Positions 33,100 to 63,798 of a stretch of 64,000 nucleotides of DNA are shown here, piece by piece. The notes beneath the pieces are model-generated. The model saw only the letters and a list, made by a program, of their open reading frames with translations, searched no databases and was not told the DNA's origin. Origin of the DNA: Patescibacteria group bacterium (GTDB taxonomy: Bacteria; Patescibacteriota; Patescibacteriia; Patescibacteriales; UBA12465); NCBI GenBank assembly GCA_041661685.1, contig JBAZTY010000001.1, forward strand, positions 256,691 to 320,690, given 5' to 3'. Each line of letters begins with the position of its first letter. Positions within the stretch are counted from its first letter, which is position 1. The position numbers were made by a program, and so were the translations under genes.

Positions 33100-35571
33100 T
33101 TAGCGTCCGCTGCGGCGGCTTATCTCCGCTTCGACCAGCTTAGCGTTCTGTCCGTATTTCAAGCGGCTCAGAGCCCGAATCTTATCGGCGAGCCCTGGGC
33201 GCTTAACGCCCAAGATCGGCCAGATTGTCTTCAAGGAGAACGGCCGCGATGAGCTATTATCGACTAAAAGTTTAAGACAAGCCATGCCCTTATCAACGTT
33301 AATGAGGTCATACTCGTTAAAGACCGGCGCGAATTCCTTAACTAGAAAAGCGGCATCTTCCGAACCGATCTTAAAGCTCACCATCGTGCCGACGTTGCCA
33401 AAGACCGCATCCTTAATCTCGGTATTATTATTCTTTGTTAATTGACCGATATACTGATGAGCGATGACCAGGTTAAGCGCATATTTTCTAGCTTCCGATA
33501 ATATCTGGCAGATCGAGTTAGTCGTGAAATTCTGGAACTCATCGATATAAAGATAAAAATCCTTGCGCGATTCTTGGGGCATATCCGTGCGGCTGAGCGC
33601 CGCCATCAAAATCTTGCCGACTAAAATCATACCCAAGAGATAAGCATTCATTTCGCCGACGATGCCTTTCGGCAAATCGATAAGCAAGATCTTCTGCTTG
33701 TCCATCACTTCGCGCAGATTAAAAGCGCTCTTCTGCTGCCCGATAATCGGGCGCATCATGTCGTTAGAAATAAACGAAGTCAACTTGGAAGTAATGTACG
33801 GAACGATATTAGCTAAAGCCGCTTCCCCGCCGGCTTTCTCCGCTTCCTTACGCCAGAAATCAACGACGGTCTGATTCTTGCAGCGGCTCAGCTTTAAGCG
33901 ACGGAACTCTTCATCAGCCAGAACTTTCGGAATCTCCATTAAAGTCGAACCGCTCTCCGGATCGTCCATAATAAGCAGCATCGCGTTCCTCATGTATTGT
34001 TCGAACATCGGACCGCCAGTCGCTTTCAAATCATATAATTTATCGAAGATGCCGATCATCTCGTTGATAACAAAGCTCTTCTGCTCCGGATAACGCTCAT
34101 CATAATCTAGCAGGTTTAAAGCGAGCGGGCGTTCCAGGTCTCCGGGAGAAAAGATGATGACGTCTTCAGCTCTTTCCGGCGGCATGCGATCCAAGATGTC
34201 TTGAATCAAATCGCCGTGCGGGTCGAGTACGCAGACGCCTTCCCCGTTCTGGATATCCTGAATGGCCATATTCGCCAATAAGACAGATTTACCGACACCG
34301 GATTTACCGATGATATAGGTATGGCGGCGGCGGTCGGCGCGCTTAATCCTGATTTCCTTCTTGACGCCGCGATAGACATTCTCGCCCAAGCTTATGCCTT
34401 CAGTCGGAATCTCAGCCGGAGCTGGAGCAACTCTAGAAGTCAGCCAGAAGATATTCGGAGTTTCTGTCCCGGATAGCGGGAAATGAAAAATACTAGCTAG
34501 CTCTTCACTATTCATTAAGAAGCTAGTCTGCTCGCGGAAATAACGATAAATAAAATCCTTAATGATTTTATCAGGGTCGCTCTTATAAACGCGGGAAAAG
34601 ACGTTGCCGTAACTGAAATTATTATATTCCATGAAAGCGCTCGAGACATTATCCAGATAGACATTCGCTTTTTCTTTCGTGTTCGCGCAAGCGACGACGC
34701 GGACATTCACATCCAGCCCGGCTTTCAAGTTCTTCTCTTCAATCGCTTTCAGCATCTCTTCTTCGACGGCTGACAATTTTTTCATATCCAGCGGATGCGC
34801 CGGATCTTTCGGTTTAGACGAAGGCATCAGTTCATTGAAAAAATTAAGAAAACGTCCGTAAGAAGAGGCAGCCATTAAACCATTCTTAACCGATTGTTTC
34901 TTGATAATACTCTGGGCAACACGACGAGAAGTCCCATGCCAGGAACCCCTAGCGCTGCGAACAGTATATTGGATCGCCAGGCTTTCATCCTTATCTAATT
35001 TTGATAATATGTTAATAAGCGAATTAAGCGGATCAACTTCCATCTTCTGATAAGTCTTGATCGGAAAAACGAAGTTCTTAGTCGTCCGCAGATAACCGGC
35101 AGCAATAGCTCCTTTCAAACTAAAAGAATTATAATCTTCCAACTCTTCAATCACCGCTTGCGGATAATGCGCGTGAATCTGCTGCTCTAAATAACGCGCG
35201 CTCTCCTTAGGCGCCGCGATATAAAAAGAAATGCGGTTATGGCTGGCGACAATCTCAAAAGAAAATTGATCATTGCGTCCGGTCAGCCAATGAGAAAAGC
35301 CGCTCTGCGCTTTCAGGCCGCCGATAGCAGAAAATATTGTCTCTCCTTTAGCGATTTCCTCTTTCATCTGATTAACGTTTGCCTCTTTCTTATCATCGCT
35401 CGGCTTTTCTTTCGGCAAGCGGACAATGAAGACCTGATGCGGAAAATAACGGCGGCGCGCCAGCAAGAGCCTGATGATATTTAGGATAATCAGCGCGCCA
35501 AAAATAATCGCGCCTGAAACGGCGAGATAATAAATAGCGGCGTCTCCTAAATTAAAAGGAAGGTTTTCCAT
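33100..35571 (-). CDS. membrane-anchored VirD4/TraD/HerA-like P-loop ATPase (type IV coupling-protein-like)
   Basis: N-terminal TM helix, about 400 aa of unknown domain, then Walker A YIIGKSGVGKS, Walker B FYLYIDEFQNF, and ARKYALNLVIAHQYIGQL. Confidence 0.65.
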   Translation of the reverse strand: MENLPFNLGDAAIYYLAVSGAIIFGALIILNIIRLLLARRRYFPHQVFIVRLPKEKPSDDKKEANVNQMKEEIAKGETIFSAIGGLKAQSGFSHWLTGRNDQFSFEIVASHNRISFYIAAPKESARYLEQQIHAHYPQAVIEELEDYNSFSLKGAIAAGYLRTTKNFVFPIKTYQKMEVDPLNSLINILSKLDKDESLAIQYTVRSARGSWHGTSRRVAQSIIKKQSVKNGLMAASSYGRFLNFFNELMPSSKPKDPAHPLDMKKLSAVEEEMLKAIEEKNLKAGLDVNVRVVACANTKEKANVYLDNVSSAFMEYNNFSYGNVFSRVYKSDPDKIIKDFIYRYFREQTSFLMNSEELASIFHFPLSGTETPNIFWLTSRVAPAPAEIPTEGISLGENVYRGVKKEIRIKRADRRRHTYIIGKSGVGKSVLLANMAIQDIQNGEGVCVLDPHGDLIQDILDRMPPERAEDVIIFSPGDLERPLALNLLDYDERYPEQKSFVINEMIGIFDKLYDLKATGGPMFEQYMRNAMLLIMDDPESGSTLMEIPKVLADEEFRRLKLSRCKNQTVVDFWRKEAEKAGGEAALANIVPYITSKLTSFISNDMMRPIIGQQKSAFNLREVMDKQKILLIDLPKGIVGEMNAYLLGMILVGKILMAALSRTDMPQESRKDFYLYIDEFQNFTTNSICQILSEARKYALNLVIAHQYIGQLTKNNNTEIKDAVFGNVGTMVSFKIGSEDAAFLVKEFAPVFNEYDLINVDKGMACLKLLVDNSSSRPFSLKTIWPILGVKRPGLADKIRALSRLKYGQNAKLVEAEISRRSGR

Positions 35572-36097: not shown

Positions 36098-36271
36098 TTA
36101 TTTAACGCTGATAACTTCTACCGGGCAATTCTCAGCCGCGTTCTTAGCACAGTCCGTCGCCACATCGCTCACGACTTCAGACTTTCCGTCCAAATCCATC
36201 TGAAAAGTTTCCGGGCACATGCCGGCGCATAAGCCACAGCCGATACACTTGTTCTTGTCTACTTTGACCAT
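36098..36271 (-). CDS. small single-cluster [4Fe-4S] ferredoxin (57 aa)
   Basis: Not in the ORF track (under 60 aa). Sequence: MVKVDKNKCIGCGLCAGMCPETFQMDLDGKSEVVSDVATDCAKNAAENCPVEVISVK. It has CxxCxxC...CP plus distal C...CP, like the Thermotoga/Pyrococcus-type ferredoxins. A TGgTATAAT promoter element lies at the complement of 36310-36318. Confidence 0.8.
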   Translation of the reverse strand: MVKVDKNKCIGCGLCAGMCPETFQMDLDGKSEVVSDVATDCAKNAAENCPVEVISVK

Positions 36272-52496: not shown

Positions 52497-52976
52497 TTAT
52501 TTTTTCGCTTTAACTTTCTGGGTAACAACCATCTTCTCTTTAGTTATCGTTCTTTTGGCGACAACGGGTTTTTTCTTGCCCGCCACCTTTTTAACCGCGC
52601 CTTCATTTTTACTCTCATAATCAGCAATCGCTTTCTGCAAGCCTTGAACAGCCATGACCGAGCAATGGATTTTCTGGTTAGGCAGACCGCCTAATTCATC
52701 AACAACCTGCTTCCAATTATATTTCTTGGCTTGATCAATAGACAAGCCTTTAACTTTCTCGGTCAGAAGCGAGGCGGTCGCGATATTGGACGCACAACCA
52801 AAAGACAGAAACTTCACGTCCTTAATCTTTCCCTTTCCAATCTTCAAAAAAAAGTCCAGTTGATCGCCACAGACCATATTACCGATCTGGGCATAGCCAT
52901 CCGGTTTAGCAATTTTGCCGATATTCTGCGGCTTCAAAAAATGATTAATTGTTTTCTTAGTATAATTAAGAGCCAT
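52497..52976 (-). CDS. NifU/IscU-type Fe-S cluster scaffold with Lys-rich C-terminal tail
   Basis: The ATG at 52976 gives MALNYTKKTINHFLKPQNIG. Cys ligands are in NMVCGD, FGCASN and IHCSV. Tail KKVAGKKKPVVAKRTITKEKMVVTQKVKAKK. The ORF-track start is a TTG at 53039. Confidence 0.85.
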   Translation of the reverse strand: MALNYTKKTINHFLKPQNIGKIAKPDGYAQIGNMVCGDQLDFFLKIGKGKIKDVKFLSFGCASNIATASLLTEKVKGLSIDQAKKYNWKQVVDELGGLPNQKIHCSVMAVQGLQKAIADYESKNEGAVKKVAGKKKPVVAKRTITKEKMVVTQKVKAKK

Positions 52977-53063
52977 ATATTTACGCCATTTATATTTATT
53001 AAAACTTATCTTTATTATTCTATGCTTTAGCCGGCTCAACCAGCCCGCCTTGACATAAGTAAT

Positions 53064-53092
53064 ATTTTATATCAACTTTAGATAAATGTCAA
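53064..53092 (-). promoter_or_regulatory. sigma70-type promoter for the nifU-like gene
   Basis: On the minus strand: TTGACA (complement of 53087-53092), 17 nt, TAAAAT (complement of 53064-53069). Confidence 0.5.
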
Positions 53093-53160
53093 TTGTGGCT
53101 CATGGCATTAAAAAATAAAAAAACCCAAGTCTATTGACGAGGGCTTAATCTTACAACCTT

Positions 53161-54072
53161 TTATCTGATTTCAAGGTCGATTTCCTTATATATTATATCA
53201 GCTCCTTCGGGAAAATAAGCCGATATAGTTTTTTCAATCTTGGGAATCAGCTCTCCCCAATTATACGACTCAGCCTTCTGAAGAGAAAAGGTGTATGCTC
53301 CCTTTTCATTCATTTCTGGAGGAACACCATTGATAGACACAACGCCATCGGAAATATTATTTTCCGGTATGACAATCCCTTCCAAAAAGGTCAGACGGCG
53401 GCCAAGAAAAATATGATGGCGGACTTCGCTCCTTAACATAATGAATAAATAATCAGGATCTGGACTTCTGAAAATAGTGACGGTCTGCCTCTCAAACTCC
53501 GCTTGATATTCACGATGTAACCGAGTAAACAAAAATCTAAGGATAGCATCATTCAGATCGCTGAATTTCGCCGCCGGCGACTTGGAAACAGCTATCCCAT
53601 AACCGTCGCTAAAATCAATGTCGGCTAATTGATGAGAATGCGCCAGCATAGTCTCTTTTGCTTCATTGTCAAAATTATGACGGTAGCTTGAATAGAACAT
53701 CAGCTGGTCAGGATTCCTCTTCTTGCCCGAAAAAACTGGCGAGACCCGAATTACAAAACCCCTATACCTTTTGCTAATGAACACATTCTTTTCATTTTCA
53801 TCGACTTTATAATCTCCGGGGTCGATGGGAGTTGTTTCTTTTTCCGCAATCTTTTGAACAAAATTTTCCTTTTTGTTTCGATAAAGACGATAATAAATAA
53901 CACTGAGAACTACTAATGTAAAGGAAGCCACAAATCCAATTACTTGGATTGCCTGCAGCCAACCAAAATGGTTGATCGAATCTTGGATAATTAACATATT
54001 TTTAAAGTACTTGCCTGTATCCAGTAAATCGCTACTGAAAAACGGATTGGCTTGCGCCTTGCTACTTGCCAT
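53161..54072 (-). CDS. hypothetical membrane-anchored protein
   Basis: 303 aa with one TM helix (VIGFVASFTLVVLSVIYY). It has its own promoter-like TTGACA-17-TAATAT upstream. No motif recognised. Confidence 0.6.
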   Translation of the reverse strand: MASSKAQANPFFSSDLLDTGKYFKNMLIIQDSINHFGWLQAIQVIGFVASFTLVVLSVIYYRLYRNKKENFVQKIAEKETTPIDPGDYKVDENEKNVFISKRYRGFVIRVSPVFSGKKRNPDQLMFYSSYRHNFDNEAKETMLAHSHQLADIDFSDGYGIAVSKSPAAKFSDLNDAILRFLFTRLHREYQAEFERQTVTIFRSPDPDYLFIMLRSEVRHHIFLGRRLTFLEGIVIPENNISDGVVSINGVPPEMNEKGAYTFSLQKAESYNWGELIPKIEKTISAYFPEGADIIYKEIDLEIR

Positions 54073-54155
54073 TCAGGATATTTATCTTTACCCCATAATT
54101 CCAAGCTTTAGGAATGATGATATATTAGTATATTTATAACTATTTGTCAACAAAC

Positions 54156-54181
54156 AAAATAGGCTTATTAGGCCTATTTTT
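54156..54181. terminator. rho-independent terminator after nifS
   Basis: AAAATAGGC, 7-nt loop, GCCTATTTT. The element is symmetric. Confidence 0.75.
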
Positions 54182-54209
54182 ATGAAATCTAAATATTTCT
54201 AAGATAAAT

Positions 54210-55364
54210 CTAAACAACTGGGGAAAAACTCCTCAGTCTCTTAAATGTTGCTTTCAAGCGCTTGATCGTGTAGTCTATCTCCGCCTTCGTATTATACCGT
54301 CCGAAAGAAAAGCGGATATTACTGTTCAAGAAATTCTTTTCTAAGCCGATGGCGCGCAAGACATGAGAGGATTTCAGGTTAGTCGCCGAACAAGCCGAAC
54401 CGGTCGAAACATGGATGCCCTTGAAAGACAGGTCGATTAGGATAGCCTCCCCTTCGATATAGCCGAACATGATATTAAGATTGGCCGGAACGCGCTTCGT
54501 CAGGCTGCCGTTCAACTTCACTTCCGGAACCTCTTTCTTGATGCTCTTCCAAAAATAATCGCGCAGAGCCGTCACTTTGTTCAGATAAGCCGTTCTTTCC
54601 TTGTAAGCTAGTTCTAAAGCGGCCGCGAGACCGATAATTCCGGGGAGATTATAGGTACCGGAGCGATAGCCGTCTTCCTGCCCGCCGCCGACGATAAGCG
54701 GACGAATCTTCACTTTGCGATTTATATAAGCTAAGCCCACACCCTTGGGGCCGTAGAACTTATGCGCCGACAAAGTCATAAAATCAAGACCCATCTTTTT
54801 GACGTCGAGCTTCAGATATGGAACTGCCTGGACCGCGTCGCTATGGAAATAAGCGCCGTGCTTATGAGCGATCTCGGCTAAAGCGGCGATATCTTGAATA
54901 GTACCGATTTCATTATTGACGGCCATGACAGAAACTAGAATAGTAGAGTCATCGATTAATTTCTCTAAAGCGTCCGGAGAAATGATACCCTCAGAATCAG
55001 CCGGGATGAATTCGACTTTGAAGCCTTCCCTCTCTAATTCTAAAGCCGACTCGCGCACGCACGGGTGCTCGATAGCGGAGACGATGATCTTATTCTTCTT
55101 TTCAGTCCTATTGGCTCGAGCCACGCCCTTAATGATAAAATTATTAGCCTCGGTCGCGCTGGCGGTAAAAATAACACCCTCCGCTTCCCCGCCAATAAGC
55201 TTAGCGACCGCCTGACGCGCCTTAGACAGGTCTAAAAAGGCCTCTTGCCCGGGAAGATGGATAGATGAAGGATTGGCGTATTTAGTTGTCAAATAAGGCT
55301 TCATTTTAGCCAGAACCCGCTCGTCTAGCCGAGTGGTAGCGGCATTATCTAAATATACTTGCAT
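54210..55364 (-). CDS. cysteine desulfurase (NifS/IscS type, class V aminotransferase)
   Basis: PLP-lysine motif SAHKFYGPKG and active-site Cys loop STGSACSA. Confidence 0.92.
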   Translation of the reverse strand: MQVYLDNAATTRLDERVLAKMKPYLTTKYANPSSIHLPGQEAFLDLSKARQAVAKLIGGEAEGVIFTASATEANNFIIKGVARANRTEKKNKIIVSAIEHPCVRESALELEREGFKVEFIPADSEGIISPDALEKLIDDSTILVSVMAVNNEIGTIQDIAALAEIAHKHGAYFHSDAVQAVPYLKLDVKKMGLDFMTLSAHKFYGPKGVGLAYINRKVKIRPLIVGGGQEDGYRSGTYNLPGIIGLAAALELAYKERTAYLNKVTALRDYFWKSIKKEVPEVKLNGSLTKRVPANLNIMFGYIEGEAILIDLSFKGIHVSTGSACSATNLKSSHVLRAIGLEKNFLNSNIRFSFGRYNTKAEIDYTIKRLKATFKRLRSFSPVV

Positions 55365-56093: not shown

Positions 56094-56123
56094 AAAAAGC
56101 TATCCCGATCGGATAGCTTTTTT
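56094..56123. terminator. bidirectional rho-independent terminator
   Basis: AAAAAGCTATCC-CGATC-GGATAGCTTTTT. Confidence 0.9.
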
Positions 56124-56149: not shown

Positions 56150-56902
56150 TTATTTCAACAACTCGATAGAATTAACAATAACATCCTTAACCGGCCGATC
56201 GGCGTCTCCGGTCTCAGTGGCTCCAATCTTCTTAACGACGTCCAGGCCTGCGACGACTTCGCCGAAATTAGTATGATGCCCGTCAAGCCACGGAGTAGCC
56301 GCAGCCGTCACGATAAAAAACTGCGAACCATTCGTGCCCGGACCGGCATTAGCCATAGCCAAACTGCCCGCTACTAGCTTATGGGCATTGAACTCATCAT
56401 CAAACTTATAGCCCGGTCCGCCCGTTCCCCAAAGACTAGCATCGGTTCCTTTACTCGAAGGATCACCGCCCTGAATCATAAAATCTTTGATGACGCGATG
56501 GAATTTCGTGCCATTATAAAAATCTTTCTGAGCGAGATTCAAGAAATTATTAACCGTCTTAGGCGAATCAGCGCCATAAAACTTGACGGTGATATTACCG
56601 TAATTAGTCTTGATGAGCGCCTGAGAATATTGCGCGAACAAATCTTCCTGGCCTTCTAAGGTTTTCATACTGGTATTAGTTTCAACCGGCGCTGTCGTTC
56701 CCTCGGTCTGAGCCGGAGTAACGATAGTATTAGTTGCCGGTGCGGACGAGTCGATGGCGCTTTTACTCGAAGCGTCAGTTATCGCCGCTGAATTATTAAT
56801 ATTGATATTATCCGTCGCCTTATTATCGCTATTAGCGCAGGCGGAAACGCTTAACGCGGCCACAAGCAACATGGCCGCGAACATGATTTTTTTCATACTC
56901 AT
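56150..56902 (-). CDS. cyclophilin-type peptidyl-prolyl isomerase, lipoprotein
   Basis: Lipobox LSVSAC. FHRVIKDFMIQGGDP and LAMANAGPGTNGSQFFI. Confidence 0.92.
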   Translation of the reverse strand: MSMKKIMFAAMLLVAALSVSACANSDNKATDNININNSAAITDASSKSAIDSSAPATNTIVTPAQTEGTTAPVETNTSMKTLEGQEDLFAQYSQALIKTNYGNITVKFYGADSPKTVNNFLNLAQKDFYNGTKFHRVIKDFMIQGGDPSSKGTDASLWGTGGPGYKFDDEFNAHKLVAGSLAMANAGPGTNGSQFFIVTAAATPWLDGHHTNFGEVVAGLDVVKKIGATETGDADRPVKDVIVNSIELLK

Positions 56903-56909
56903 ATTTTAA

Positions 56910-58367
56910 TTAAACTTTATAATGTTTTTTAATCTCTTTATCTTCTTCCTGGCGCTTTTCTTCAATCATCTCCTTAGCGCGGCTTCGCAATTCTTCCAAG
57001 TCCATATCCGCTAATTTCCGCGCCTGCGCCTCCAAGCTATCTTCGGTATTCAATTCCGGGTCTTCGAGGACTTCGCCTAATAGTACGTCGAGAATCGCCC
57101 CAATCTTCGGCCCGGGAGGAATATTTAAGATACGCATCAACCCGTCGCCATTAATCTTCAGCATCTTAACTGAGACCGGATCGTTCTGGACCTTCTCGAG
57201 CATATACTCTAGGTGGCGCAGCTTATAGGGCATGGCCTTAGGCGTGCCCGAACCGAGGCGATCGGCGACGCGCAGATCAATAAGGTCTTTAAGATTCTCC
57301 CGGCCAACCTTCACGATCAGGCGACGGACCGAAGCGGCAGTCACCTCTCCGACATTATAATAAAACATGTGATTCTTGACCAGATTAACCACCCGCGTCC
57401 GGTCTTCCGTCGAGAATTTCAAGCGGTTCATAATTTTCTCCGTCATCTTCGCGCCCAAGTATTCATGATTATAGAAAGTAGCGATGCCTTTGATAATCTT
57501 GCGCGTCTTCGGCTTAGCGATATCGTGGAATAAGGCGGCTAAGCGCACCGGCCATTCCTTATTCGGGCAATGCTTCAGAGAGGAAATATTATGAACGAAA
57601 ACCGAAGTCGTATGATGGCGGTCTTGCTTCACGCCGACACCGGCTTCCAGTTCCGGCAAGATATATTGCAAAAGCTTGCAATCCTGAAGCAGCATAATTC
57701 CCTCAGACGGACGATCGGACGACAGAATCTTCACGAGCTCATCACGAATCCTTTCCCCCGATACAAATTTCAAACTGCCGGCTAATTTAGTTATTCCCCG
57801 CTGAGTCTTCGGCTCCAATTCAAAACCGAGCTGAGAACTAAACCGGACAGCCCGCATCATGCGCAAAGCGTCTTCCTTAAAACGATCCTCGGGCTGCCCG
57901 ACGGCGCGGATGATTTTTTTCTTGATATCTTTTTCGCCGCCGAAGAGATCGATGATCTTATCCGGCTCACTGGGATTAAGAGCTAAGGCATTAATAGTAA
58001 AATCGCGGCGCTCCAAATCCTTATCCAATTCTTTTTCAAAACGGACGATATCGGGATGGCGGCGATCGGAATAACCTTGTTCGCTCCGATAAGTCGTGAT
58101 CTCGACGACATCCTGCAATTGTCCCTTGCTAGCTCCTTCTTCCGGCTCAGTCCGGATCGGCAAAAGCACAGTACCAAAGACATTTTCATATCTCGCATCC
58201 GCGAATACTTTTTGAATTTCCTCGGGCAAGGCATTAGTCGTGATATCCCAATCTTTCGGTTCTTTATTCATCAAGACGTCGCGCACGCAGCCGCCCACAA
58301 TATAGGCCTCATAACCCGAGGCCTGTAAAGCTTTGACGATATCTTTTATGTAAACTGGAATATTCAT
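56910..58367 (-). CDS. cca: CCA tRNA nucleotidyltransferase (HD-domain type)
   Basis: GGCVRDVLMNKEPKDWDITT and RDFTINALA, followed by an HD region (HDIAKP). Confidence 0.9.
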   Translation of the reverse strand: MNIPVYIKDIVKALQASGYEAYIVGGCVRDVLMNKEPKDWDITTNALPEEIQKVFADARYENVFGTVLLPIRTEPEEGASKGQLQDVVEITTYRSEQGYSDRRHPDIVRFEKELDKDLERRDFTINALALNPSEPDKIIDLFGGEKDIKKKIIRAVGQPEDRFKEDALRMMRAVRFSSQLGFELEPKTQRGITKLAGSLKFVSGERIRDELVKILSSDRPSEGIMLLQDCKLLQYILPELEAGVGVKQDRHHTTSVFVHNISSLKHCPNKEWPVRLAALFHDIAKPKTRKIIKGIATFYNHEYLGAKMTEKIMNRLKFSTEDRTRVVNLVKNHMFYYNVGEVTAASVRRLIVKVGRENLKDLIDLRVADRLGSGTPKAMPYKLRHLEYMLEKVQNDPVSVKMLKINGDGLMRILNIPPGPKIGAILDVLLGEVLEDPELNTEDSLEAQARKLADMDLEELRSRAKEMIEEKRQEEDKEIKKHYKV

Positions 58368-58375
58368 AATAAAAA

Positions 58376-60124
58376 TTAATTCTTGACAGTCGTTAAGATT
58401 GAACCGTCCGTCTTCTGGAATTTAGTGTGCAGTACTTTAGCGCTTAAGCCGTGCTTCTTGGCCCATTCATAATATTCGACCGCCGCCTTATTCTCATGCG
58501 CGCGTCTGATCGCTCTGCTCTTATCAATACTGTATAGACCATTCAAACGTTTTTGTCTAATGGCCGCCGTCGTCGGGATAGGCTGGCCGCCGCCGCCGAT
58601 GCAGCCTCCAGGACAAGCCATCACTTCTATACAATGATATTTTTTGAGTTTTGGCAAGACTTTGTGAAGATTGGCAATACCATTAACGATACCGACCCTA
58701 ATCCGTTTGTCGCCGATAGCGACAATCGCTTCCTTAAAACCAGCTAAGCCGCGGACATCTTTGAATTCCAAACGTTCAGTACAGATAGGACTCTGCTTGG
58801 CTTTAGATCCTTTCTTGTCGGCGCAAGCGAGAGAGGCCGCGCTTCTAAGAGCCGACTCCATCACGCCGCCGGACGCGCCATAGATAGCCGCCGCGCCGCT
58901 GCCATGATTAAAGAGCTTATCGCCGTCTGAGGGCGTTAACTTCTTAAAATCAATCTTATTCTTTTTAATCAAATAAGCCAACTCTCTTGTCGTTAGAACA
59001 TAGTCAACGAGCGGCCGGCCGTTCAAACTCAACTCCGGACGCGCCGCTTCATATTTTTTAGAGGTGCAAGGCATAATAGAAACGAGAACGATATTCTTTG
59101 GATCAATCCCTTTCTTCTCGGCCCAATAAGTTTTCACGGCGCCGGCCAGATGAATCTGCGGCGAACGCGCCATCGTTAGATGCGGCAATAATTCCGGATG
59201 ATAATATTCGGCATAAGCGACCCAAGAGGGGCAGCATGAACTCATCATCGGCCAGATTGCGTTCTTATCCTTCATGCGTTCCACTAGTTCTTCCGCCTCG
59301 GTCAGAGTCGTAATATCAGCGCCGAAATTCACATCGACAACACTATTAAAACCTAATTTCTTCAAGGCGGTATAAATCAATCCTTCACAGTTAACACCAT
59401 AAGGCAAACCGAATTCCTCTCCGATACTGACACGGATAGACGGCGCGAATTGAGCGACGACTATCTTCTTCTTATCCTTGATCGCCTTTTCCACGGCCGG
59501 CCAAGCGCTCTGTTCCTGTGCGGACGCGGCTGGACAATGCAAAGCACATTGGCCGCAATAAATGCAAGCGCTATTATTATCCTTATCCGGCACGATCTCC
59601 TGAGCAGCTCCAACACCGGCCATCTTCAAATAATCGATGCCTTGGTTATGGCAAGCGGAGACGCAATTATCGCAATCAATGCATTGTTCACCGTCGATCT
59701 CGACGGCATTAGCGAAACGATAAGTCTTACGGCCATGCTTACGCGGAACTAAACGATCGCTTTTCACTTTATAAACCCGGGCTAATCGCAATAATTCACA
59801 ATCAGGAAAAGCAATACAGTCAGCGCATTTTTTCGTATGTTCAGCTAAGACTAATTCTAGATTGATAGCGCGCGCTTTTTTCACTCGCGGACTATCAGTC
59901 CATATTTCCATGCCAGCTTTAGCTTCGGTCGAACAAGCAGTCGCGAGCTTATCGCGGCCCTTAATTTCGACGACGCAGACGCGGCAATTAGCTTTCACAT
60001 CCAAATCAGGATGATAACACAAAGACGGAATTTTTATTCCGTACTCGCGCGCGATCTCTAATATCGTCTGGCCAGTTTTAGCCGCGACGACTTTGTTATT
60101 TATCTTCAAAGTCATGAGAGTCAT
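58376..60124 (-). CDS. hydA: [FeFe]-hydrogenase catalytic subunit, CpI-like domain order
   Basis: A 2Fe-2S ferredoxin-like N-terminus, a His-ligated cluster EHTKKCADC, and two CxxCxxCxxxCP motifs. H-cluster motifs are SSCCPSW, MPCTSKKYE and EVMACPGGCIGGGGQP. The C-terminal tail resembles the small subunit. Confidence 0.92.
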   Translation of the reverse strand: MTLMTLKINNKVVAAKTGQTILEIAREYGIKIPSLCYHPDLDVKANCRVCVVEIKGRDKLATACSTEAKAGMEIWTDSPRVKKARAINLELVLAEHTKKCADCIAFPDCELLRLARVYKVKSDRLVPRKHGRKTYRFANAVEIDGEQCIDCDNCVSACHNQGIDYLKMAGVGAAQEIVPDKDNNSACIYCGQCALHCPAASAQEQSAWPAVEKAIKDKKKIVVAQFAPSIRVSIGEEFGLPYGVNCEGLIYTALKKLGFNSVVDVNFGADITTLTEAEELVERMKDKNAIWPMMSSCCPSWVAYAEYYHPELLPHLTMARSPQIHLAGAVKTYWAEKKGIDPKNIVLVSIMPCTSKKYEAARPELSLNGRPLVDYVLTTRELAYLIKKNKIDFKKLTPSDGDKLFNHGSGAAAIYGASGGVMESALRSAASLACADKKGSKAKQSPICTERLEFKDVRGLAGFKEAIVAIGDKRIRVGIVNGIANLHKVLPKLKKYHCIEVMACPGGCIGGGGQPIPTTAAIRQKRLNGLYSIDKSRAIRRAHENKAAVEYYEWAKKHGLSAKVLHTKFQKTDGSILTTVKN

Positions 60125-60861
60125 TATTTTTTTATCTTCACTAATTCCTTATAGATGCTATAGGTATAGACCAGGACTATCGGACCAATTAAGAGGCTCG
60201 CGACTTGGACGATAGCGCCCCAGATAGAATTAAATAAGCTGCCTTTTTCAGCAAAGGATAGCGGCAGGGATATTAATAATGAGAAGACCCAGACAATGAC
60301 GCCGACAAAGATGAAGCGTCCGAACACCGGCCAGAAATATCCGGAAACGAGCTGAACGCTGCGGCGGATAGCGGCCAGGCCTCGCTTATCCTCGAAGAAT
60401 AAGGCATAGCAAGCAAAACTATAAAGCACGGAATAGATGATGCCCGGAATTATAAGCAGTAAGGTCCAAAGGAGCACGAAGACGCAAGTCAAGATAACCA
60501 GACTAACATAGGGCCAGAAATACTGACGAGTCTCTTTGAACAGCTTCTTTTCATGGCCGGCATAATCGTTCTTGACGAGCAAGAAGATACCGATATAAGA
60601 ACGGATAAAGAAATACAGCGCCGTAAAAAAACCGAGAACGGAAATAATGACGGTCGCGATTCGGAAACCGAGGCCAACGCTATCGCCGAGCCAATAATTG
60701 ACGCCGAGCAAGATAGCGATAACCGCCATCGGAATAAGCGCATACAATAATCCCCAAAGATAGATAAGCACTATCTTCTTAAGATTCTTCCACCAGGTTT
60801 TCAGCGCGATTTCAAAAGTGTCGAAAACCGGCACGAGCTTGATCTTTTTTTCTTTGTCCAT
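60124..60861 (-). CDS. hypothetical polytopic membrane protein (about 6 TM)
   Basis: 245 aa and strongly hydrophobic. Its stop overlaps the hydA start (TAATG). It starts 10 nt after the NuoF-like stop. Confidence 0.7.
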   Translation of the reverse strand: MDKEKKIKLVPVFDTFEIALKTWWKNLKKIVLIYLWGLLYALIPMAVIAILLGVNYWLGDSVGLGFRIATVIISVLGFFTALYFFIRSYIGIFLLVKNDYAGHEKKLFKETRQYFWPYVSLVILTCVFVLLWTLLLIIPGIIYSVLYSFACYALFFEDKRGLAAIRRSVQLVSGYFWPVFGRFIFVGVIVWVFSLLISLPLSFAEKGSLFNSIWGAIVQVASLLIGPIVLVYTYSIYKELVKIKK

Positions 60862-60871
60862 ATTGTTTAAA

Positions 60872-61906
60872 TTATTTCTTAACTATCTTAACTATATTAT
60901 TAAAATAACTTTTTAACGGAATCGGCAACGAAGATCCCAGCGCACAGAAACTGGTCTCTTCCAAGCTCGAAACTATTTCCCAGAATAGCTTATAATCGAT
61001 CTCTTTCTTGTTAATAAGTTCCCATAAGCGATAAGTACCCTCGCGGCAAGGAACGCATTGGCCGCAGCTCTGTTCATGATAAAATTTCAACCAATATTTT
61101 AAGAGTTTTCGCCGATCAGTCTCTTCAGCATGATAAATCATAATCGAACCCGTGCCCTCGACCGGTCGATCAAGTTGGCCGGAGTTAAAAACTTCTCCGC
61201 TCGCTTCGCCGCCAGTCTGGATAAAGAAAGGCCAAGCTGGATAATTACCCGTCCGCTTCAAAATTTCTTCTATAGTAAGATTGATTGGCAATTTATGGAC
61301 GCCGGGGCGCTTAACCCCGCCAGTGATAGTATAAAAACGATCCTCTTCATAGTTATCGCGCGCTAACCGGCTGACATTATAAAAAGTTTCCGTGTTATTG
61401 ACGAGCGTCGGGTGATTATGCAAACCGTTCGTCGTCGGATAGGGCGGTTTTAGACGCGGCTGGATCCGCTTCCCTTCAATCAGATTCAAGAGTACTGTCT
61501 CTTCGCCGCCGATATAAGTCAGACTTTCCGGCTTTAAGAAAAATTCTAATTTTTTAGCGAGAGCGCCATATCTCTTAGTCGCGAGAACTTTCTTAAGCCC
61601 GGCGCCATATTTCTGATAATACTCATGATTCAGAAAAAAATAAATCCGCTTGATCTTAGCCGACCCCAGGAATTTATCAGCTTCGTAGACGCCGTTTAAG
61701 ACTTCTTCTGGGTAATTGGCGATGATATAGCCGTCTTTCTTCACGCCCGGCTCGCCTTCGGCGCCATTAACGATAATATAGCCGAGTTTTTTAGTTTTTA
61801 GAGCATCACCCACCGCTGCCCATTTCTGGGCAGTCGGGAAAGAAGCGCCGCCGCGACCGACTAGTCCAGCCGAGGCCATTTTTTTTAGAATGTCTGTTCT
61901 AGGCAT
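60872..61906 (-). CDS. NuoF-like NADH-binding flavoprotein (short form)
   Basis: GRGGASFPTAQKW, VNGAEGEPG, YIGGEETVLLNLIEG, RLKPPYPTTNGLHNHPTLVNNTET and SCGQCVPCREG...SFCALG. Only 344 aa. Confidence 0.8.
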   Translation of the reverse strand: MPRTDILKKMASAGLVGRGGASFPTAQKWAAVGDALKTKKLGYIIVNGAEGEPGVKKDGYIIANYPEEVLNGVYEADKFLGSAKIKRIYFFLNHEYYQKYGAGLKKVLATKRYGALAKKLEFFLKPESLTYIGGEETVLLNLIEGKRIQPRLKPPYPTTNGLHNHPTLVNNTETFYNVSRLARDNYEEDRFYTITGGVKRPGVHKLPINLTIEEILKRTGNYPAWPFFIQTGGEASGEVFNSGQLDRPVEGTGSIMIYHAEETDRRKLLKYWLKFYHEQSCGQCVPCREGTYRLWELINKKEIDYKLFWEIVSSLEETSFCALGSSLPIPLKSYFNNIVKIVKK

Positions 61907-61921
61907 GAAAAATATTATTTC

Positions 61922-62653
61922 CTATCTCGCTGTCCAGCCACCATCGACATAGATGATAGTGCCAGTCACATATTTAGCATCATCACTCGCTAAGTATAAA
62001 GCGGCTTGAGCAATATCATTCGGTTCTCCGACATGTCCTAAAGGCGTGCTGGCTTTAATCATATTGTTAAATCCTTCATCAGCCAGGACTCCTTTAGTCA
62101 TATTAGTAGCGATGAATCCAGGAGCAATAGCGTTTATACGGATTCCCAAAGGCGCTAAGTCTAAAGCGCCCGCGTGAGTCAGCTGCACTACTCCGCCCTT
62201 AGTTGCTGAATAAGCGATAGTCGAGGCCATACCGACAGATCCAAGAATAGAGCTCATATTAATAATATTGCCTTTGATGCCAGCCGCTTTCATAGCATTA
62301 GCGGCGGCGCGTGCGCCATACATAACGCCGAAAAGATTTATCTTCAAAATCTTTTCCCAGTCCGCATCCGTTACCTCAAGAATTCCGCCCAGGCCGCCAA
62401 TACCGGCATTATTAACCATGATATCCAAGTGGCCGAACTTATCTACCGCCGTTTTAACGAGCGCGTCGACCTCTTTTGAATTAGCAACATCGCATTTTAC
62501 AAATAGAGCTTTAGCCGGGTCTAATTCCATAACCGGAGCATTCACGTCCGAATAGACGACTTTTGCGCCCTCAGACGAGAAGAGATTGGCGATAGCTAGA
62601 CCGATGCCGCTAGAGGCGCCGGTGACGATAGCGACTTTATTATCTAGTTTCAT
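61922..62653 (-). CDS. SDR family NAD(P)-dependent oxidoreductase
   Basis: TGASSGIGLA, NNAG, and the catalytic YSATKGG (YxxxK). Confidence 0.9.
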   Translation of the reverse strand: MKLDNKVAIVTGASSGIGLAIANLFSSEGAKVVYSDVNAPVMELDPAKALFVKCDVANSKEVDALVKTAVDKFGHLDIMVNNAGIGGLGGILEVTDADWEKILKINLFGVMYGARAAANAMKAAGIKGNIINMSSILGSVGMASTIAYSATKGGVVQLTHAGALDLAPLGIRINAIAPGFIATNMTKGVLADEGFNNMIKASTPLGHVGEPNDIAQAALYLASDDAKYVTGTIIYVDGGWTAR

Positions 62654-62663
62654 ATTATTAATA

Positions 62664-63677
62664 TTATTTTATAAATTTCTTTACATAATCCGCTAACTCC
62701 ACGAAACGATTGGAATAGCCCCATTCGTTATCATACCAGGAGATGACTTTAAGCAAGTCGCCGTCCACGATTCTTGTATTCTTCATGTCGATGATTGAGC
62801 TATGGGAATTACCGATGATATCTGTCGAGACTAATTCCTCATCGGAAGCTTGGATGATGCCGCGCATCTTGCCATTCGCCGCTTTAATGAAAGCACGATT
62901 CACTTTTTCGACTGTCGTTTTTTTGCCTAGCAGATAAACCGTGTCGCATAAAGAGCCGACTGGAGTCGGAACGCGGACGGCTAAACCGTCGAACTTACCC
63001 ACTAGGGACGGAATAGTTTCGGTCGTGGAAATAGCCGCGCCAGTCGTCGTCGGGATGATATTGATCGCGGCCGCGCGCGCTCTTCTCAAGTCCTTATGCG
63101 GACCATCGACCAGATTCTGATCAGCCGTATAAGAATGGACGGTTGTCATGAGTGCTTTCTTGATGCCGAAATTTTCCTTAATGACTTTAGTGGACGGAGC
63201 CAAGCAATTCGTCGTGCACGATGCGCAGGATAAGATATCATCCTTTTTAGTAACCTTATCCATGTTCACGCCCGGCACTATCACCTTGACGCCGCCCTTC
63301 TTCGCTGGGGCGGACAGGATTACTTTCTTGGCGCCGGCCTTAAGATGCGCACTCAAGCTTTCCTTATTCGTAAAGCGTCCAGTGCATTCCAGAACGATAT
63401 CGACTTTAAATTCTTCCCAAGGAAGTTCGCTCGGATCTTTGACAGCTAGAACCGGAATCTTATGGCCGTTCACGACGATAGCGTCCTTAGTGGCGGAGAT
63501 TTTCTGATTGGTTGAGCCGTAGCAGGAATCATGAGCCAAGAGATGCGCTAAGGTCGCGGCGTCGGTCAAGTCATTGATAGCCACGACATGCATATTCGGG
63601 AAACGCATCCAGATGACTTTCAGGGCGGCCCGGCCGATGCGGCCAAACCCGTTGATGGCGACGTTTACCTTTTTCAT
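62664..63677 (-). CDS. gap: type I glyceraldehyde-3-phosphate dehydrogenase
   Basis: INGFGRIGR, the active site SCASCTTNCLAP, and WYDNEWGYS. Confidence 0.95.
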   Translation of the reverse strand: MKKVNVAINGFGRIGRAALKVIWMRFPNMHVVAINDLTDAATLAHLLAHDSCYGSTNQKISATKDAIVVNGHKIPVLAVKDPSELPWEEFKVDIVLECTGRFTNKESLSAHLKAGAKKVILSAPAKKGGVKVIVPGVNMDKVTKKDDILSCASCTTNCLAPSTKVIKENFGIKKALMTTVHSYTADQNLVDGPHKDLRRARAAAINIIPTTTGAAISTTETIPSLVGKFDGLAVRVPTPVGSLCDTVYLLGKKTTVEKVNRAFIKAANGKMRGIIQASDEELVSTDIIGNSHSSIIDMKNTRIVDGDLLKVISWYDNEWGYSNRFVELADYVKKFIK

Positions 63678-63768
63678 AAAATTATAATTAATTATTTATT
63701 AATGAATTATAGCATATTTAGGAAAAAGGTTAAAATAAAGATAATGTCGTCAAAGAAACGCCAGAAAC

Positions 63769-63798
63769 AAAAAACTGCCCCTTTCACGGCAGTTTTTT
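63769..63798. terminator. bidirectional rho-independent terminator
   Basis: AAAACTGCC, 8-nt loop, GGCAGTTTT, flanked by A and T runs. It separates the edge gene from the gap operon. Confidence 0.85.

What the first reader, a model, noticed from the sequence alone, without database searches (positions are those of the whole stretch)
58376..63677. Compact gap-SDR-nuoF-like-membrane-hydA operon: a minimal NADH-to-H2 module wired to glycolysis
Five genes with 10, 15, 10 and -1 nt spacers follow a terminator and a TGcTATAAT promoter-like element. cca and a PPIase follow with 8- and 7-nt spacers. GAPDH (an NADH producer), an SDR, a short 344-aa NuoF-like flavoprotein and a full CpI-type HydA with all three H-cluster motifs are co-transcribed. 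The window contains no NuoE/HydC-like 2Fe-2S subunit and no HydE/F/G maturases. The NuoF-like protein lacks the extra ferredoxin domains of bifurcating HydB. This suggests a stripped-down, non-bifurcating NADH-dependent hydrogenase that recycles glycolytic NADH, in a composition that differs from the characterised HydABC enzymes.
Basis: partly seen in the sequence, partly recalled or inferred. Interest (0 to 1): 0.6.

Follow-up and report, generated by a model that had tools for sequence, protein, structure and literature searches.

The report
NuoE-less NADH-linked [FeFe] hydrogenase operon
A tiny-genome (Patescibacteria/CPR) bacterium carries a conserved gene pair, a stripped-down NADH-binding flavoprotein next to a complete [FeFe] hydrogenase and usually just after the glycolytic gene gap, which most likely dumps glycolytic NADH electrons as H2 using fewer subunits than any characterised enzyme of this kind.

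Summary
Seven minus-strand genes (gap, SDR, 344-aa NuoF-like, 245-aa membrane protein, M3-type HydA, cca, PPIase) sit 10/15/10/-1/8/7 nt apart. An intrinsic terminator and a TG-extended -10 promoter lie upstream, and a bidirectional terminator lies downstream. The window is a Patescibacteria contig; the nearest species genome is Ca. Falkowbacteria.

The conserved core is only the NuoF-like/HydA pair. It is adjacent in 16/16 related genomes and fused into one 918-aa ORF in another lineage. gap lies directly upstream in 11 of 14 informative loci. The SDR occurs only in the closest relative, and the membrane protein is confined to a subclade.

A NuoE/HydC profile finds nothing (E<=10) in the window or 24 CPR loci, yet it hits a NuoE-like ORF or domain in most of the 64 ordinary NuoF/HydB loci (76 hits). 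The flavoprotein keeps the FMN, NADH and N3-cluster motifs. It lacks the NuoF N-terminal ~50 residues and all extra Fe-S domains, and it carries the 'non-bifurcating' signature residues.

Best reading: a two-subunit, NuoE-less, non-bifurcating NADH:H+ [FeFe] hydrogenase. This is a new variant of the known NADH-dependent enzymes (S. aciditrophicus HydAB, S. wolfei Hyd1ABC). No HydE/F/G occurs in the ~75 kb examined; the rest of the genome could not be searched.

The parts
63769..63792 (-). Intrinsic terminator after the upstream PSP1 gene (CTGCC-GTGAAAGG-GGCAG followed by TTTTTT)
   Evidence: Read directly in the sequence. The consensus scan did not list it.
63706..63733 (-). Promoter-like site, TTAACC-16 nt-TATAAT with a TG extension (TGcTATAAT)
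   Evidence: Best-scoring site of the scan, 10/12 with TG. It lies 29 nt upstream of the gap ATG.
62664..63677 (-). gap, type I glyceraldehyde-3-phosphate dehydrogenase (337 aa)
   Evidence: TIGR01534 scores 407.5 bits, above the 367.2 cutoff. Pfam Gp_dh_N and Gp_dh_C match. It lies directly upstream of the NuoF-like gene in 11 of 14 informative related loci.
61922..62653 (-). Classical SDR oxidoreductase (243 aa), substrate unknown; a lineage-specific insert
   Evidence: adh_short_C2 scores 231.8 bits. Only the NF005559 subfamily model, named 'glucose 1-dehydrogenase', is passed (233 > 215). The FabG and BudC equivalog models fall below their cutoffs. A copy in the operon (between gap and nuoF-like) occurs only in the window and L009.
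60872..61906 (-). Short NuoF-like flavoprotein (344 aa; gene callers use a 335-aa start): FMN/NADH site, SLBB-like domain and an N3-type [4Fe-4S] site. It has no NuoE-like domain and no ferredoxin domain.
   Evidence: Pfam PF01512 and PF10589 match. It falls far below the NuoF equivalog cutoff (185 vs 558 bits). It aligns to Aquifex NuoF residues 54-396. The AF2 model has pLDDT 83 and pTM 0.84, with TM ~0.8 to NuoF/HydB cores. C281, C284, C287 and C321 are invariant in the family.
60124..60861 (-). Polytopic membrane protein (245 aa, ~5-6 hydrophobic helices), weakly DUF7847/UPF0259-like. Its stop codon overlaps the hydA start (TAATG).
   Evidence: Weak Pfam/NCBIfam hits below cutoff. Hydropathy profile. 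The family has 139 proteins, and every source name given is Patescibacteria. 37 of the listed clusters share a longest-contig length with a listed NuoF-like cluster. It is absent from 10 of the 16 related loci.
58376..60124 (-). hydA, group A [FeFe] hydrogenase with M3 architecture (582 aa): [2Fe-2S], His-ligated [4Fe-4S], 2x[4Fe-4S], H-domain and SSU-like tail
   Evidence: TIGR02512, 425.5 > 405.95. H-cluster motifs and accessory-cluster cysteines are present. It scores ~420 bits against A. woodii and T. kivui HydA1 and against CpI alike.
56910..58367 (-). cca, CCA-adding tRNA nucleotidyltransferase (485 aa); co-linear, with no functional link expected
   Evidence: It is syntenic downstream of hydA in many related loci.
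56150..56902 (-). Cyclophilin-type PPIase with an N-terminal hydrophobic/low-complexity leader (250 aa)
   Evidence: It is syntenic in related loci.
56094..56122 (.). Bidirectional intrinsic terminator (12-bp stem flanked by A and T runs), the likely end of the transcription unit

Best explanation
The NuoF-like protein and HydA form a two-subunit, NuoE-less, non-bifurcating NADH-dependent [FeFe] hydrogenase.

**Proposed mechanism (inferred)**
1. NADH, produced chiefly by the GAPDH encoded at the head of the operon, gives a hydride to FMN in the NuoF-like subunit.
2. Electrons leave one at a time through its single N3-type [4Fe-4S] cluster.
3. They enter the NuoG-like N-terminal cluster chain of HydA ([2Fe-2S], His-ligated [4Fe-4S], two [4Fe-4S]).
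4. They reach the H-cluster, which reduces protons to H2.

The arrangement works like the N-module of complex I (NuoF to NuoG) with a hydrogenase in place of the quinone module. NADH to H2 is uphill under standard conditions. Net H2 release therefore needs low H2 partial pressure (tens of Pa), as supplied by H2-consuming neighbours or hosts. The enzyme could equally run in reverse.

The SDR, the membrane protein, cca and PPIase are co-transcribed passengers or accessories, not core parts. The membrane protein may tether the enzyme to the membrane in one subclade.

**Shown:** gene content, motifs, fold, conserved adjacency, the fusion, and local absence of NuoE.
**Inferred:** complex formation, NADH specificity, direction of the reaction, and activity.
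For: **Pairing of NuoF-like and HydA**
- The NuoF-like gene is immediately followed by hydA in 16/16 related species genomes, down to 39% identity. The membrane gene is interposed in five of them. The pair stands alone in the most divergent loci.
- About 45 further contigs carry both, judged by matching longest-contig lengths.
- P0141 is a single 918-aa ORF fusing the NuoF-like module to a full M3 HydA. It has no internal stop under table 11 and is seen on 3 contigs.
- A parallel fusion, P0139, joins the same short NuoF-like module to a [NiFe]-hydrogenase small-subunit domain. A [NiFe] large subunit is encoded next to it. The module therefore acts as a stand-alone input for hydrogenases.

**Absence of NuoE**
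- The NuoE HMM gives 0 hits at E<=10 in the window plus 24 CPR loci, against 76 hits in the 64 control loci. The HMM seeds were confirmed as PF01257.

**State of the flavoprotein**
- The FMN loop GRGGASFP, the EGEPG motif, YIGGEET, and the SCGxCxPCREG...C cluster ligands are conserved.
- The NuoF fold is predicted with confidence.
- The family shows non-bifurcating-type residues (Lys at the 234-equivalent, Tyr at the 367-equivalent) and no GGPSG motif. It has no C-terminal 2x[4Fe-4S] domain and no N-terminal [2Fe-2S] domain (criteria).

**State of HydA**
- The H-cluster cysteines, Lys and Glu, and the L1/L3 motifs, are kept in all loci where the region is present. The L2 Met is replaced by Val in three relatives, and the L3 region is missing from the truncated L011 copy.

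**Link to glycolysis and precedent**
- gap lies directly upstream in the window and in 11 of 14 informative loci. In the fusion lineage, pyruvate kinase lies directly upstream.
- Purified S. aciditrophicus HydAB makes H2 from NADH without ferredoxin, at 2.2-40 Pa H2 (PMC7311640).
Against: - There are no biochemical data for this family.
- In characterised systems NuoF-type subunits always come with a NuoE-like partner or domain, so stability without one is unproven.
- The AF2 model of the natural fusion gave no confident inter-domain geometry: pTM 0.59, and the HydA N-terminal cluster domains scored pLDDT <50.
- No maturase genes were seen in ~75 kb of this genome or within +/-10 kb in 16 relatives. 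Holo-enzyme formation is therefore unverified.
- cca and PPIase are equally co-linear, so synteny with gap alone is weak functional evidence.
- An M3-type HydA can also take ferredoxin, and a 57-aa 2x[4Fe-4S] ferredoxin is encoded in the window.
- The residue at the position equivalent to T. maritima HydB 232 is Val, which matches neither published class.
Confidence: 0.6

Rival explanations
1. HydA is essentially a ferredoxin-dependent (CpI-like) hydrogenase. The NuoF-like protein then acts as an NADH:ferredoxin oxidoreductase or feeds a second input, so H2 production uses ferredoxin, possibly together with NADH in a non-canonical confurcation.
For: - HydA is as similar to monomeric CpI as to the HydA of HydABC complexes.
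- A small 2x[4Fe-4S] ferredoxin is encoded at 36098-36271.
- Hydrogenosomal NuoE/F is reported to work with ferredoxin (own knowledge).
Against: - The NuoF-like protein lacks every feature tied to bifurcation or confurcation: HydC, the HydB N-terminal [2Fe-2S], the C-terminal 2x[4Fe-4S], and the AFM/F/GGPSG residues.
- Direct fusion to the HydA N-terminus points to intramolecular electron transfer rather than transfer through a diffusible carrier.
- The ferredoxin gene is 22 kb away and is not syntenic.
Confidence: 0.15
2. The same two-subunit enzyme works physiologically in the uptake direction. It oxidises environmental or host-derived H2 to make NADH for a cell that has no respiratory chain.
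For: - H2 to NAD+ is the exergonic direction.
- S. aciditrophicus HydAB catalyses both directions.
- The organism comes from anoxic, H2-containing habitats such as Lac Pavin and groundwater metagenomes.
Against: - The conserved linkage is to NADH-producing or lower glycolysis genes (gap, pyruvate kinase).
- The fermentative lifestyle described for CPR (PMC7304191) creates a need for an NADH sink rather than an NADH source.
- Group A enzymes are typically H2-evolving (own knowledge).
Confidence: 0.12
3. The hydrogenase is not catalytically matured because the genome has no HydE/F/G. The pair then serves another redox or Fe-S role, or is a relic.
For: - No maturase was found in ~75 kb of this genome or next to the pair in 16 relatives.
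- Fe-S assembly genes (NifS, NifU) are close by.
Against: - All H-cluster ligand cysteines and the Lys/Glu residues of the L1-L3 motifs are conserved across lineages as divergent as 43% identity. That implies selection for a functional H-cluster.
- Maturase genes are often unlinked from hydA (own knowledge).
- Most archaeal [FeFe]-hydrogenase genomes also lack HydEFG, yet their enzymes are active when matured. An alternative maturation pathway has been proposed (PMC11216029).
Confidence: 0.08

Closest known systems
[quoted passage not shown] 2020, PMC7311640)
   Same: Two genes, HydA plus an FMN flavoprotein. NADH to H2 without ferredoxin is shown biochemically. The beta subunit has non-bifurcating-type residues, and the CPR protein shares the Lys and Tyr signatures.
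   Different: S. aciditrophicus HydB is 66 kDa, and the heterodimer is predicted to hold two [2Fe-2S] and five [4Fe-4S] clusters besides the H-cluster. From this I infer that its HydB carries Fe-S domains beyond the N3-type cluster, probably a NuoE-like [2Fe-2S]. The CPR protein is 38 kDa with only the N3-type cluster and no NuoE-like sequence anywhere nearby.
Syntrophomonas wolfei Hyd1ABC, and hydrogenosomal NuoE/NuoF-HydA systems (Nyctotherus ovalis fusion; Caecomyces churrovis complex, PMC13556243)
   Same: Non-bifurcating NADH-dependent H2 production by HydA coupled to a complex-I-type flavoprotein. A natural fusion of hydrogenase and flavoprotein occurs in N. ovalis, as it does in the CPR protein P0141.
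   Different: All of these include a NuoE/HydC-like [2Fe-2S] thioredoxin-fold subunit or domain. The CPR family has none.
Electron-bifurcating HydABC (group A3; T. maritima 7P5H, A. woodii 7Q4V, T. kivui 8A6T)
   Same: HydA is ~40% identical, at 424 bits. The HydB core has the same fold as the CPR flavoprotein, TM ~0.8.
   Different: The CPR system has no HydC, no HydB N-terminal [2Fe-2S], and no C-terminal 2x[4Fe-4S]. It has EGEPGVKKD and xYIxGEE in place of EGDPGAFMD and AFVCGEET.
Complex I N-module (NuoE-NuoF-NuoG)
   Same: The NuoF-like FMN/N3 subunit sits next to a NuoG-like N-terminal cluster chain (the HydA N-terminus hits the NuoG, HoxU and NADH-G_4Fe-4S_3 models). The same electron path, FMN to N3 to [2Fe-2S], is expected.
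   Different: There is no NuoE. About 50 N-terminal residues of NuoF are missing; in Thermus Nqo1 this region packs against Nqo2 (own knowledge). The protein falls far below the NuoF equivalog cutoff (185 vs 558 bits). The acceptor module is an H-cluster, not the quinone arm.
Clostridium pasteurianum CpI (monomeric ferredoxin-dependent M3 [FeFe] hydrogenase)
   Same: Same M3 domain architecture and H-cluster motifs, ~416 bits.
   Different: CpI works alone with ferredoxin. Here a dedicated flavoprotein gene is invariably adjacent to hydA or fused to it.

Membership tests
Group A [FeFe] hydrogenase (HydA) | Sequence passes the group A model | tested here: met
   TIGR02512 scores 425.5 bits, above the 405.95 cutoff. 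NCBI names close homologs '[FeFe] hydrogenase, group A'.
Group A [FeFe] hydrogenase (HydA) | H-cluster motifs L1 (TSCCPxW), L2 (MPCxxKxxE) and L3 (ExMxCxxGCxxGxGQP) | tested here: met
   The window has SSCCPSW, MPCTSKKYE and EVMACPGGCIGGGGQP. The motifs are conserved in the related loci; the L2 Met is Val in three of them and L3 is missing from the truncated L011 copy.
Group A [FeFe] hydrogenase (HydA) | HydE/HydF/HydG maturases encoded in the genome | not testable with these tools
   None occur in the 64-kb window, the ~11 kb of flanks, or +/-10 kb of 16 relatives. The rest of the genome could not be reached.
Electron-bifurcating HydABC (group A3 / Bfu-type) | HydC (NuoE-like thioredoxin-fold [2Fe-2S]) subunit | tested here: not met
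   The NuoE HMM gives 0 hits at E<=10 in the window plus 24 CPR loci, and 76 hits in 64 control loci.
Electron-bifurcating HydABC (group A3 / Bfu-type) | HydB with an N-terminal [2Fe-2S] domain and a C-terminal 2x[4Fe-4S] domain | tested here: not met
   Only PF01512 and PF10589 match, and no CxxCxxCxxxC motif is present. The protein is 344 aa, against ~600 aa for HydB.
Electron-bifurcating HydABC (group A3 / Bfu-type) | Diagnostic HydB residues of Losey et al. 2020: A/E232, M234, F367 and GGPSG | tested here: not met
   The CPR family has V/I/L, K, Y and GGEASG. Control HydB-type proteins show EGDPGAFMD and AFVCGEET.
Non-bifurcating NADH-dependent [FeFe] hydrogenase (Losey criteria; NCBIfam NF040763 'group A6') | Beta subunit with K/S/A at 234, Y at 367, T/S at 232, and no GGPSG | tested here: inconclusive
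   K, Y and absence of GGPSG are met. Position 232 is Val, not Thr or Ser.
Non-bifurcating NADH-dependent [FeFe] hydrogenase (Losey criteria; NCBIfam NF040763 'group A6') | HydA passes the NF040763 model | tested here: not met
   HydA scores 609 bits against a 765 cutoff, although this is its best-scoring model.
Non-bifurcating NADH-dependent [FeFe] hydrogenase (Losey criteria; NCBIfam NF040763 'group A6') | NADH-dependent, ferredoxin-independent H2 evolution | not testable with these tools
   This requires an enzyme assay.
NuoF (complex I 51-kDa subunit) | Passes the NuoF equivalog model and sits in a nuo operon with NuoE | tested here: not met
   TIGR01959 scores 185.5 bits against a 558.65 cutoff. 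No nuo genes or NuoE are nearby. The protein aligns only from NuoF residue ~54.
NuoF (complex I 51-kDa subunit) | FMN/NADH-binding fold and N3 [4Fe-4S] ligands | tested here: met
   PF01512 scores 100.8 and PF10589 scores 59.7, both above cutoff. Four cysteines are invariant. The AF2 model has TM ~0.8 to NuoF/HydB.

The most novel reading that the evidence does not exclude
Patescibacteria run the smallest known NADH:H+ oxidoreductase, a NuoE-less NuoF-core flavoprotein wired (or fused) directly to an M3 HydA. They may also assemble its H-cluster without HydE/F/G, as has been proposed for most archaeal [FeFe]-hydrogenase genomes. In addition, the same free-standing flavoprotein module has been plugged onto [NiFe] hydrogenases.
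Probability: 0.25. Interest if true: 0.8.

Novelty: new variant of a known kind. Interest (0 to 1): 0.5.

Why it matters
- **CPR physiology.** CPR/Patescibacteria lack respiratory chains. How they re-oxidise glycolytic NADH is a standing gap in their metabolic reconstructions. The CPR metabolism survey read here analysed only [NiFe] enzymes (PMC7304191). A conserved, widely distributed two-gene NADH-to-H2 valve would close that gap. It would also make these cells H2 donors to hosts or neighbours.
- **Hydrogenase biochemistry.** A NuoF core that works without NuoE would define the minimal diaphorase module. It would be a compact part for engineering NADH-driven H2 production.
- **Maturation.** If the genomes also lack HydEFG, the puzzle of alternative H-cluster maturation would extend from archaea and some protists to bacteria.

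Tried and rejected
1. **Radical-SAM gene upstream of the operon.** The gene ~6 kb upstream of gap (outside the window) was suspected to be HydE or HydG. It is RlmN.
2. **Radical-SAM ORF near the operon in L009.** It is the AmmeMemoRadiSam enzyme, not a maturase.
4. **AF2 model of the natural fusion P0141 as a proxy for a multimer model.** Both catalytic cores were modelled well. The HydA N-terminal cluster domains scored pLDDT <50 and pTM was 0.59, so no statement on the interface is possible. MAFFT also misplaced a few terminal residues in the mixed alignment.
5. **The 240-aa ORF after the fused gene in L089.** It was tested as a homolog of the membrane protein and shows no similarity.
6. **P0127 (885-aa 'fusion').** It is not counted as evidence. 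Its junction reads ...NILG|MNV..., which could be a read-through TGA stop.
7. **Literature searches.** Searches for CPR [FeFe] hydrogenase architecture or maturases found no description of this operon. The library holds only open-access papers, so earlier mention in subscription journals cannot be excluded.
8. **Homology of the membrane protein to the archaeal 'hyd6TM'** (PMC11216029). This could not be tested because no sequence was at hand.

Full report
**What is in the window**

All genes are on the minus strand:

| Gene | Coordinates | Length |
|---|---|---|
| gap | 62664-63677 | 337 aa |
| SDR | 61922-62653 | 243 aa |
| NuoF-like | 60872-61906 | 344 aa |
| membrane protein | 60124-60861 | 245 aa |
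| hydA | 58376-60124 | 582 aa |
| cca | 56910-58367 | 485 aa |
| cyclophilin PPIase | 56150-56902 | 250 aa |

The spacers are AT-rich and lack clear Shine-Dalgarno motifs. The stop codon of the membrane gene overlaps the hydA start (TAATG).

Upstream, the PSP1 gene is followed by a hairpin plus T-run at 63792-63769. A TTAACC-16-TGcTATAAT site at 63733-63706 is the best promoter-like match in the region. On the minus strand nothing better than chance-level hairpins occurs until a 12-bp bidirectional terminator at 56094-56122, after the PPIase gene. The probable transcription unit therefore holds seven genes, not five.

**Domain content**

- GAPDH is type I.
- The SDR is a classical SDR.
- The flavoprotein has only Complex1_51K and NADH_4Fe-4S.
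- HydA has the full M3 architecture and passes the group A model.
- The three H-cluster motifs and the accessory-cluster cysteines are present.

**Origin**

The window is identical to part of a 202-kb ENA metagenome contig. The membrane protein is identical to an NCBI MAG protein from a 'Patescibacteria group bacterium'. The closest species genome is a Ca. Falkowbacteria MAG from Lac Pavin, with 80-89% identity across the operon proteins.

**What is absent**

The Pfam labels of every called gene in the window, plus ~10.3 kb beyond the gap end and ~0.7 kb beyond the other end, show no PF01257 (NuoE/HydC), no HydF and no HydE/G. The one radical-SAM gene lies outside the window and is RlmN.

I built a NuoE HMM from 25 NuoE ORFs that sit next to ordinary NuoF/HydB genes in control loci. 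Two of these seeds were checked against Pfam and match PF01257. The HMM gives no hit at E<=10 among all ORFs of >=40 aa in the window and 24 CPR loci. In the 64 control loci it gives 76 hits, either as separate ORFs or as N-terminal fusions.

**Comparative genomics**

The NuoF-like protein belongs to a large, tight family of ~341-aa proteins. The 120 best database hits are at least 59% identical, and every organism name given is Patescibacteria. At the 50%-identity cluster level, about 30 clusters score above ordinary NuoF.

In 16 species genomes carrying a family member, the patterns are as follows.
- **hydA:** the next hydrogenase-related gene in all 16, with the membrane gene interposed in five.
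- **gap:** directly upstream in 11 of the 14 loci where upstream sequence exists.
- **SDR:** found in the operon only in the window and its closest relative.
- **membrane protein:** found in the window and 5 of the 16 loci, and split into two ORFs in L009.
- **cca, PPIase, NifS:** follow hydA in many loci.

In the most divergent lineages (L020-L022) the pair stands alone among unrelated genes, 9, 6 or -1 nt apart.

Matching longest-contig lengths indicate about 45 further contigs that carry both NuoF-like and HydA. They also indicate 37 contigs that carry NuoF-like and the membrane protein. The membrane protein family has only 139 members, and every source name given is Patescibacteria.

**Fusions**

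The representative search turned up P0141, a 918-aa protein in which the NuoF-like module runs straight into a complete M3 HydA. Its DNA (L089 8001-10757) is one open frame under table 11 and occurs on three contigs. Pyruvate kinase abuts it upstream.

A second fusion, P0139, joins the same short module through a Pro/Thr-rich linker to a [NiFe]-hydrogenase small-subunit domain. A [NiFe] large-subunit gene follows 2 nt later.

These fusions are the strongest evidence here for two points. The flavoprotein physically partners the hydrogenase, and it is a self-sufficient input module.

**State of the flavoprotein**

- It aligns to Aquifex NuoF residues 54-396. It therefore lacks the N-terminal ~50 residues, which pack against Nqo2/NuoE in Thermus Nqo1 (own knowledge).
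- The FMN loop (GRGGASFP), EGEPG, YIGGEET, PRLKPPYP and the four N3 cysteines are conserved.
- An AF2 model has pLDDT 83 and pTM 0.84. It superposes on NuoF/HydB cores with TM ~0.8.
- I applied the criteria of Losey et al. (PMC7311640). In my control loci, HydB-type proteins read EGDPGAFMD and AFVCGEET, and non-bifurcating NuoF-type proteins read E[GS]EPGTFKD and AYICGEE. The CPR family reads EGEPG[VIL]KKD and xYIxGEE, has GGEASG rather than GGPSG, and has no ferredoxin-type motif.
- Two diagnostic residues are therefore of the non-bifurcating type, one is unique (Val), and all extra clusters are missing.

**State of HydA**

HydA scores equally against A. woodii and T. kivui HydA1 and against CpI. 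Sequence alone therefore does not reveal its redox partner. The H-cluster cysteines, Lys and Glu are conserved in the related copies down to 43% identity, apart from the truncated L011 copy that lacks the L3 region. The only change is Met to Val in L2 in three of them. This argues for a functional active site.

**Interpretation**

The best-supported reading is a two-subunit, NuoE-less, non-bifurcating NADH-dependent [FeFe] hydrogenase. The proposed path is FMN to N3 to the NuoG-like cluster chain of HydA to the H-cluster. It is usually co-transcribed with gap, which makes the NADH.

The reaction is endergonic under standard conditions. The characterised S. aciditrophicus HydAB sustains only 2-40 Pa H2 from NADH. 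The CPR enzyme would likewise depend on H2 scavenging by neighbours.

The link to glycolysis is plausible, given gap in 11 of 14 loci and pyruvate kinase in the fusion lineage. It is not compelling, because cca and PPIase share the same synteny.

The SDR is a lineage-specific insert of unknown substrate. The membrane protein is a subclade-specific accessory, possibly an anchor. An uncharacterised 4-6-helix membrane protein ('hyd6TM') has been noted next to archaeal group A hydrogenases (PMC11216029). I could not test homology to it.

**Comparison with what is known**

[quoted passage not shown] All retain a NuoE-like module, and this family does not. It is not a member of the HydABC/A3 bifurcating class, because three defining features were tested and not met. 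It is also not a true NuoF.

Public annotation simply calls these proteins '[FeFe] hydrogenase, group A' and 'NADH-ubiquinone oxidoreductase-F iron-sulfur binding region domain-containing protein'. I found no paper in the searchable library describing the architecture.

**Open point**

Maturases are absent from the ~75 kb of this genome that I could see and from the neighbourhoods in 16 relatives. The rest of the genome was out of reach with these tools. Most archaeal [FeFe]-hydrogenase genomes lack HydEFG (PMC11216029). The same may or may not hold here.

**Verdict**

The finding is a new variant of a known kind and of moderate interest. Interest would rise if the NuoE-less enzyme is shown to be active, or if the genomes prove to lack maturases.

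Noticed in passing
P0139 (JGI metagenome 3300072015, 6.8-kb contig; no DNA held): The same short NuoF-like module is fused, through a long Pro/Thr/Ser-rich linker, to a [NiFe]-hydrogenase small-subunit (Oxidored_q6) domain. A [NiFe] large-subunit gene follows 2 nt downstream. This looks like a two-gene NADH-linked [NiFe] hydrogenase, also without NuoE.
   Followed up: partly
L089 8001-10757 (ENA ERZ27316312 k141_158022, 29% GC): A natural single-ORF fusion of NuoF-like and a full M3 HydA (918 aa). Pyruvate kinase abuts it upstream (stop at 8000, start at 8001). An unannotated 240-aa ORF downstream is not similar to the window's membrane protein.
   Followed up: yes
window 36098-36271 (-): A 57-aa 2x[4Fe-4S] ferredoxin gene, a possible alternative redox partner for an M3 HydA. 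It is not linked to the operon.
   Followed up: partly
window 52497-55364 (-): Fe-S assembly genes lie just downstream of the operon: NifS-like cysteine desulfurase (54210-55364), a 303-aa protein with no family hit (53161-54072), and NifU_N/IscU-like (52497-52976). NifS also follows the hydA-cca-PPIase block in several relatives.
   Followed up: partly
L009 11055-11794; L011 2354-3372: In the closest species genome the membrane-protein gene is split into two ORFs. In L011 the gap gene is split into two ORFs. These are frameshifts or assembly errors. If real, the membrane protein is dispensable.
   Followed up: no
L013, L015, L018, L019, L020, L024 (labelled 'uncultured Gammaproteobacteria'), L016 (labelled 'Woesearchaeota archaeon'), L022 (labelled 'Saccharibacteria'): Several TPA MAG records that carry the CPR-type gap/nuoF-like/hydA/cca/PPIase synteny have organism labels that look implausible for this gene order. 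If the Woesearchaeota label of L016 is real, it would imply CPR-DPANN transfer of the pair.
   Followed up: no
NuoF-like family, window protein residues 130-137 (TYIGGEET): The Cys of the otherwise near-universal Y/F-[IV]-C-GEE motif of NuoF/HydB is replaced by Ser, Gly or Ala throughout the CPR family. The Phe of PG-x-F-[KM]-D is replaced by Lys, Ser, Tyr or Asp. The consequences for the NADH/FMN site are unknown.
   Followed up: no
HydA of L009, L010, L023: The L2 motif reads VPCTxKKYE instead of MPCTxKKYE. The Met is replaced by Val in three Falkowbacteria-related genomes.
   Followed up: no
L004 1-7185 (upstream of the window on the same contig): Further lower-glycolysis genes (pyruvate kinase, enolase, a His_Phos_1 phosphoglycerate-mutase-like gene) lie 4-10 kb upstream of gap. 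They are interspersed with RlmN, an Fe/Mn superoxide dismutase and translation genes.
   Followed up: no
window 33100-35571 (-) and 18159-21446 (+): An 823-aa protein carries DUF8128 and faint type-IV-secretion coupling-protein hits. A 1095-aa protein is surface-Ig-like. Both may relate to an episymbiotic lifestyle and are unrelated to the finding.
   Followed up: no
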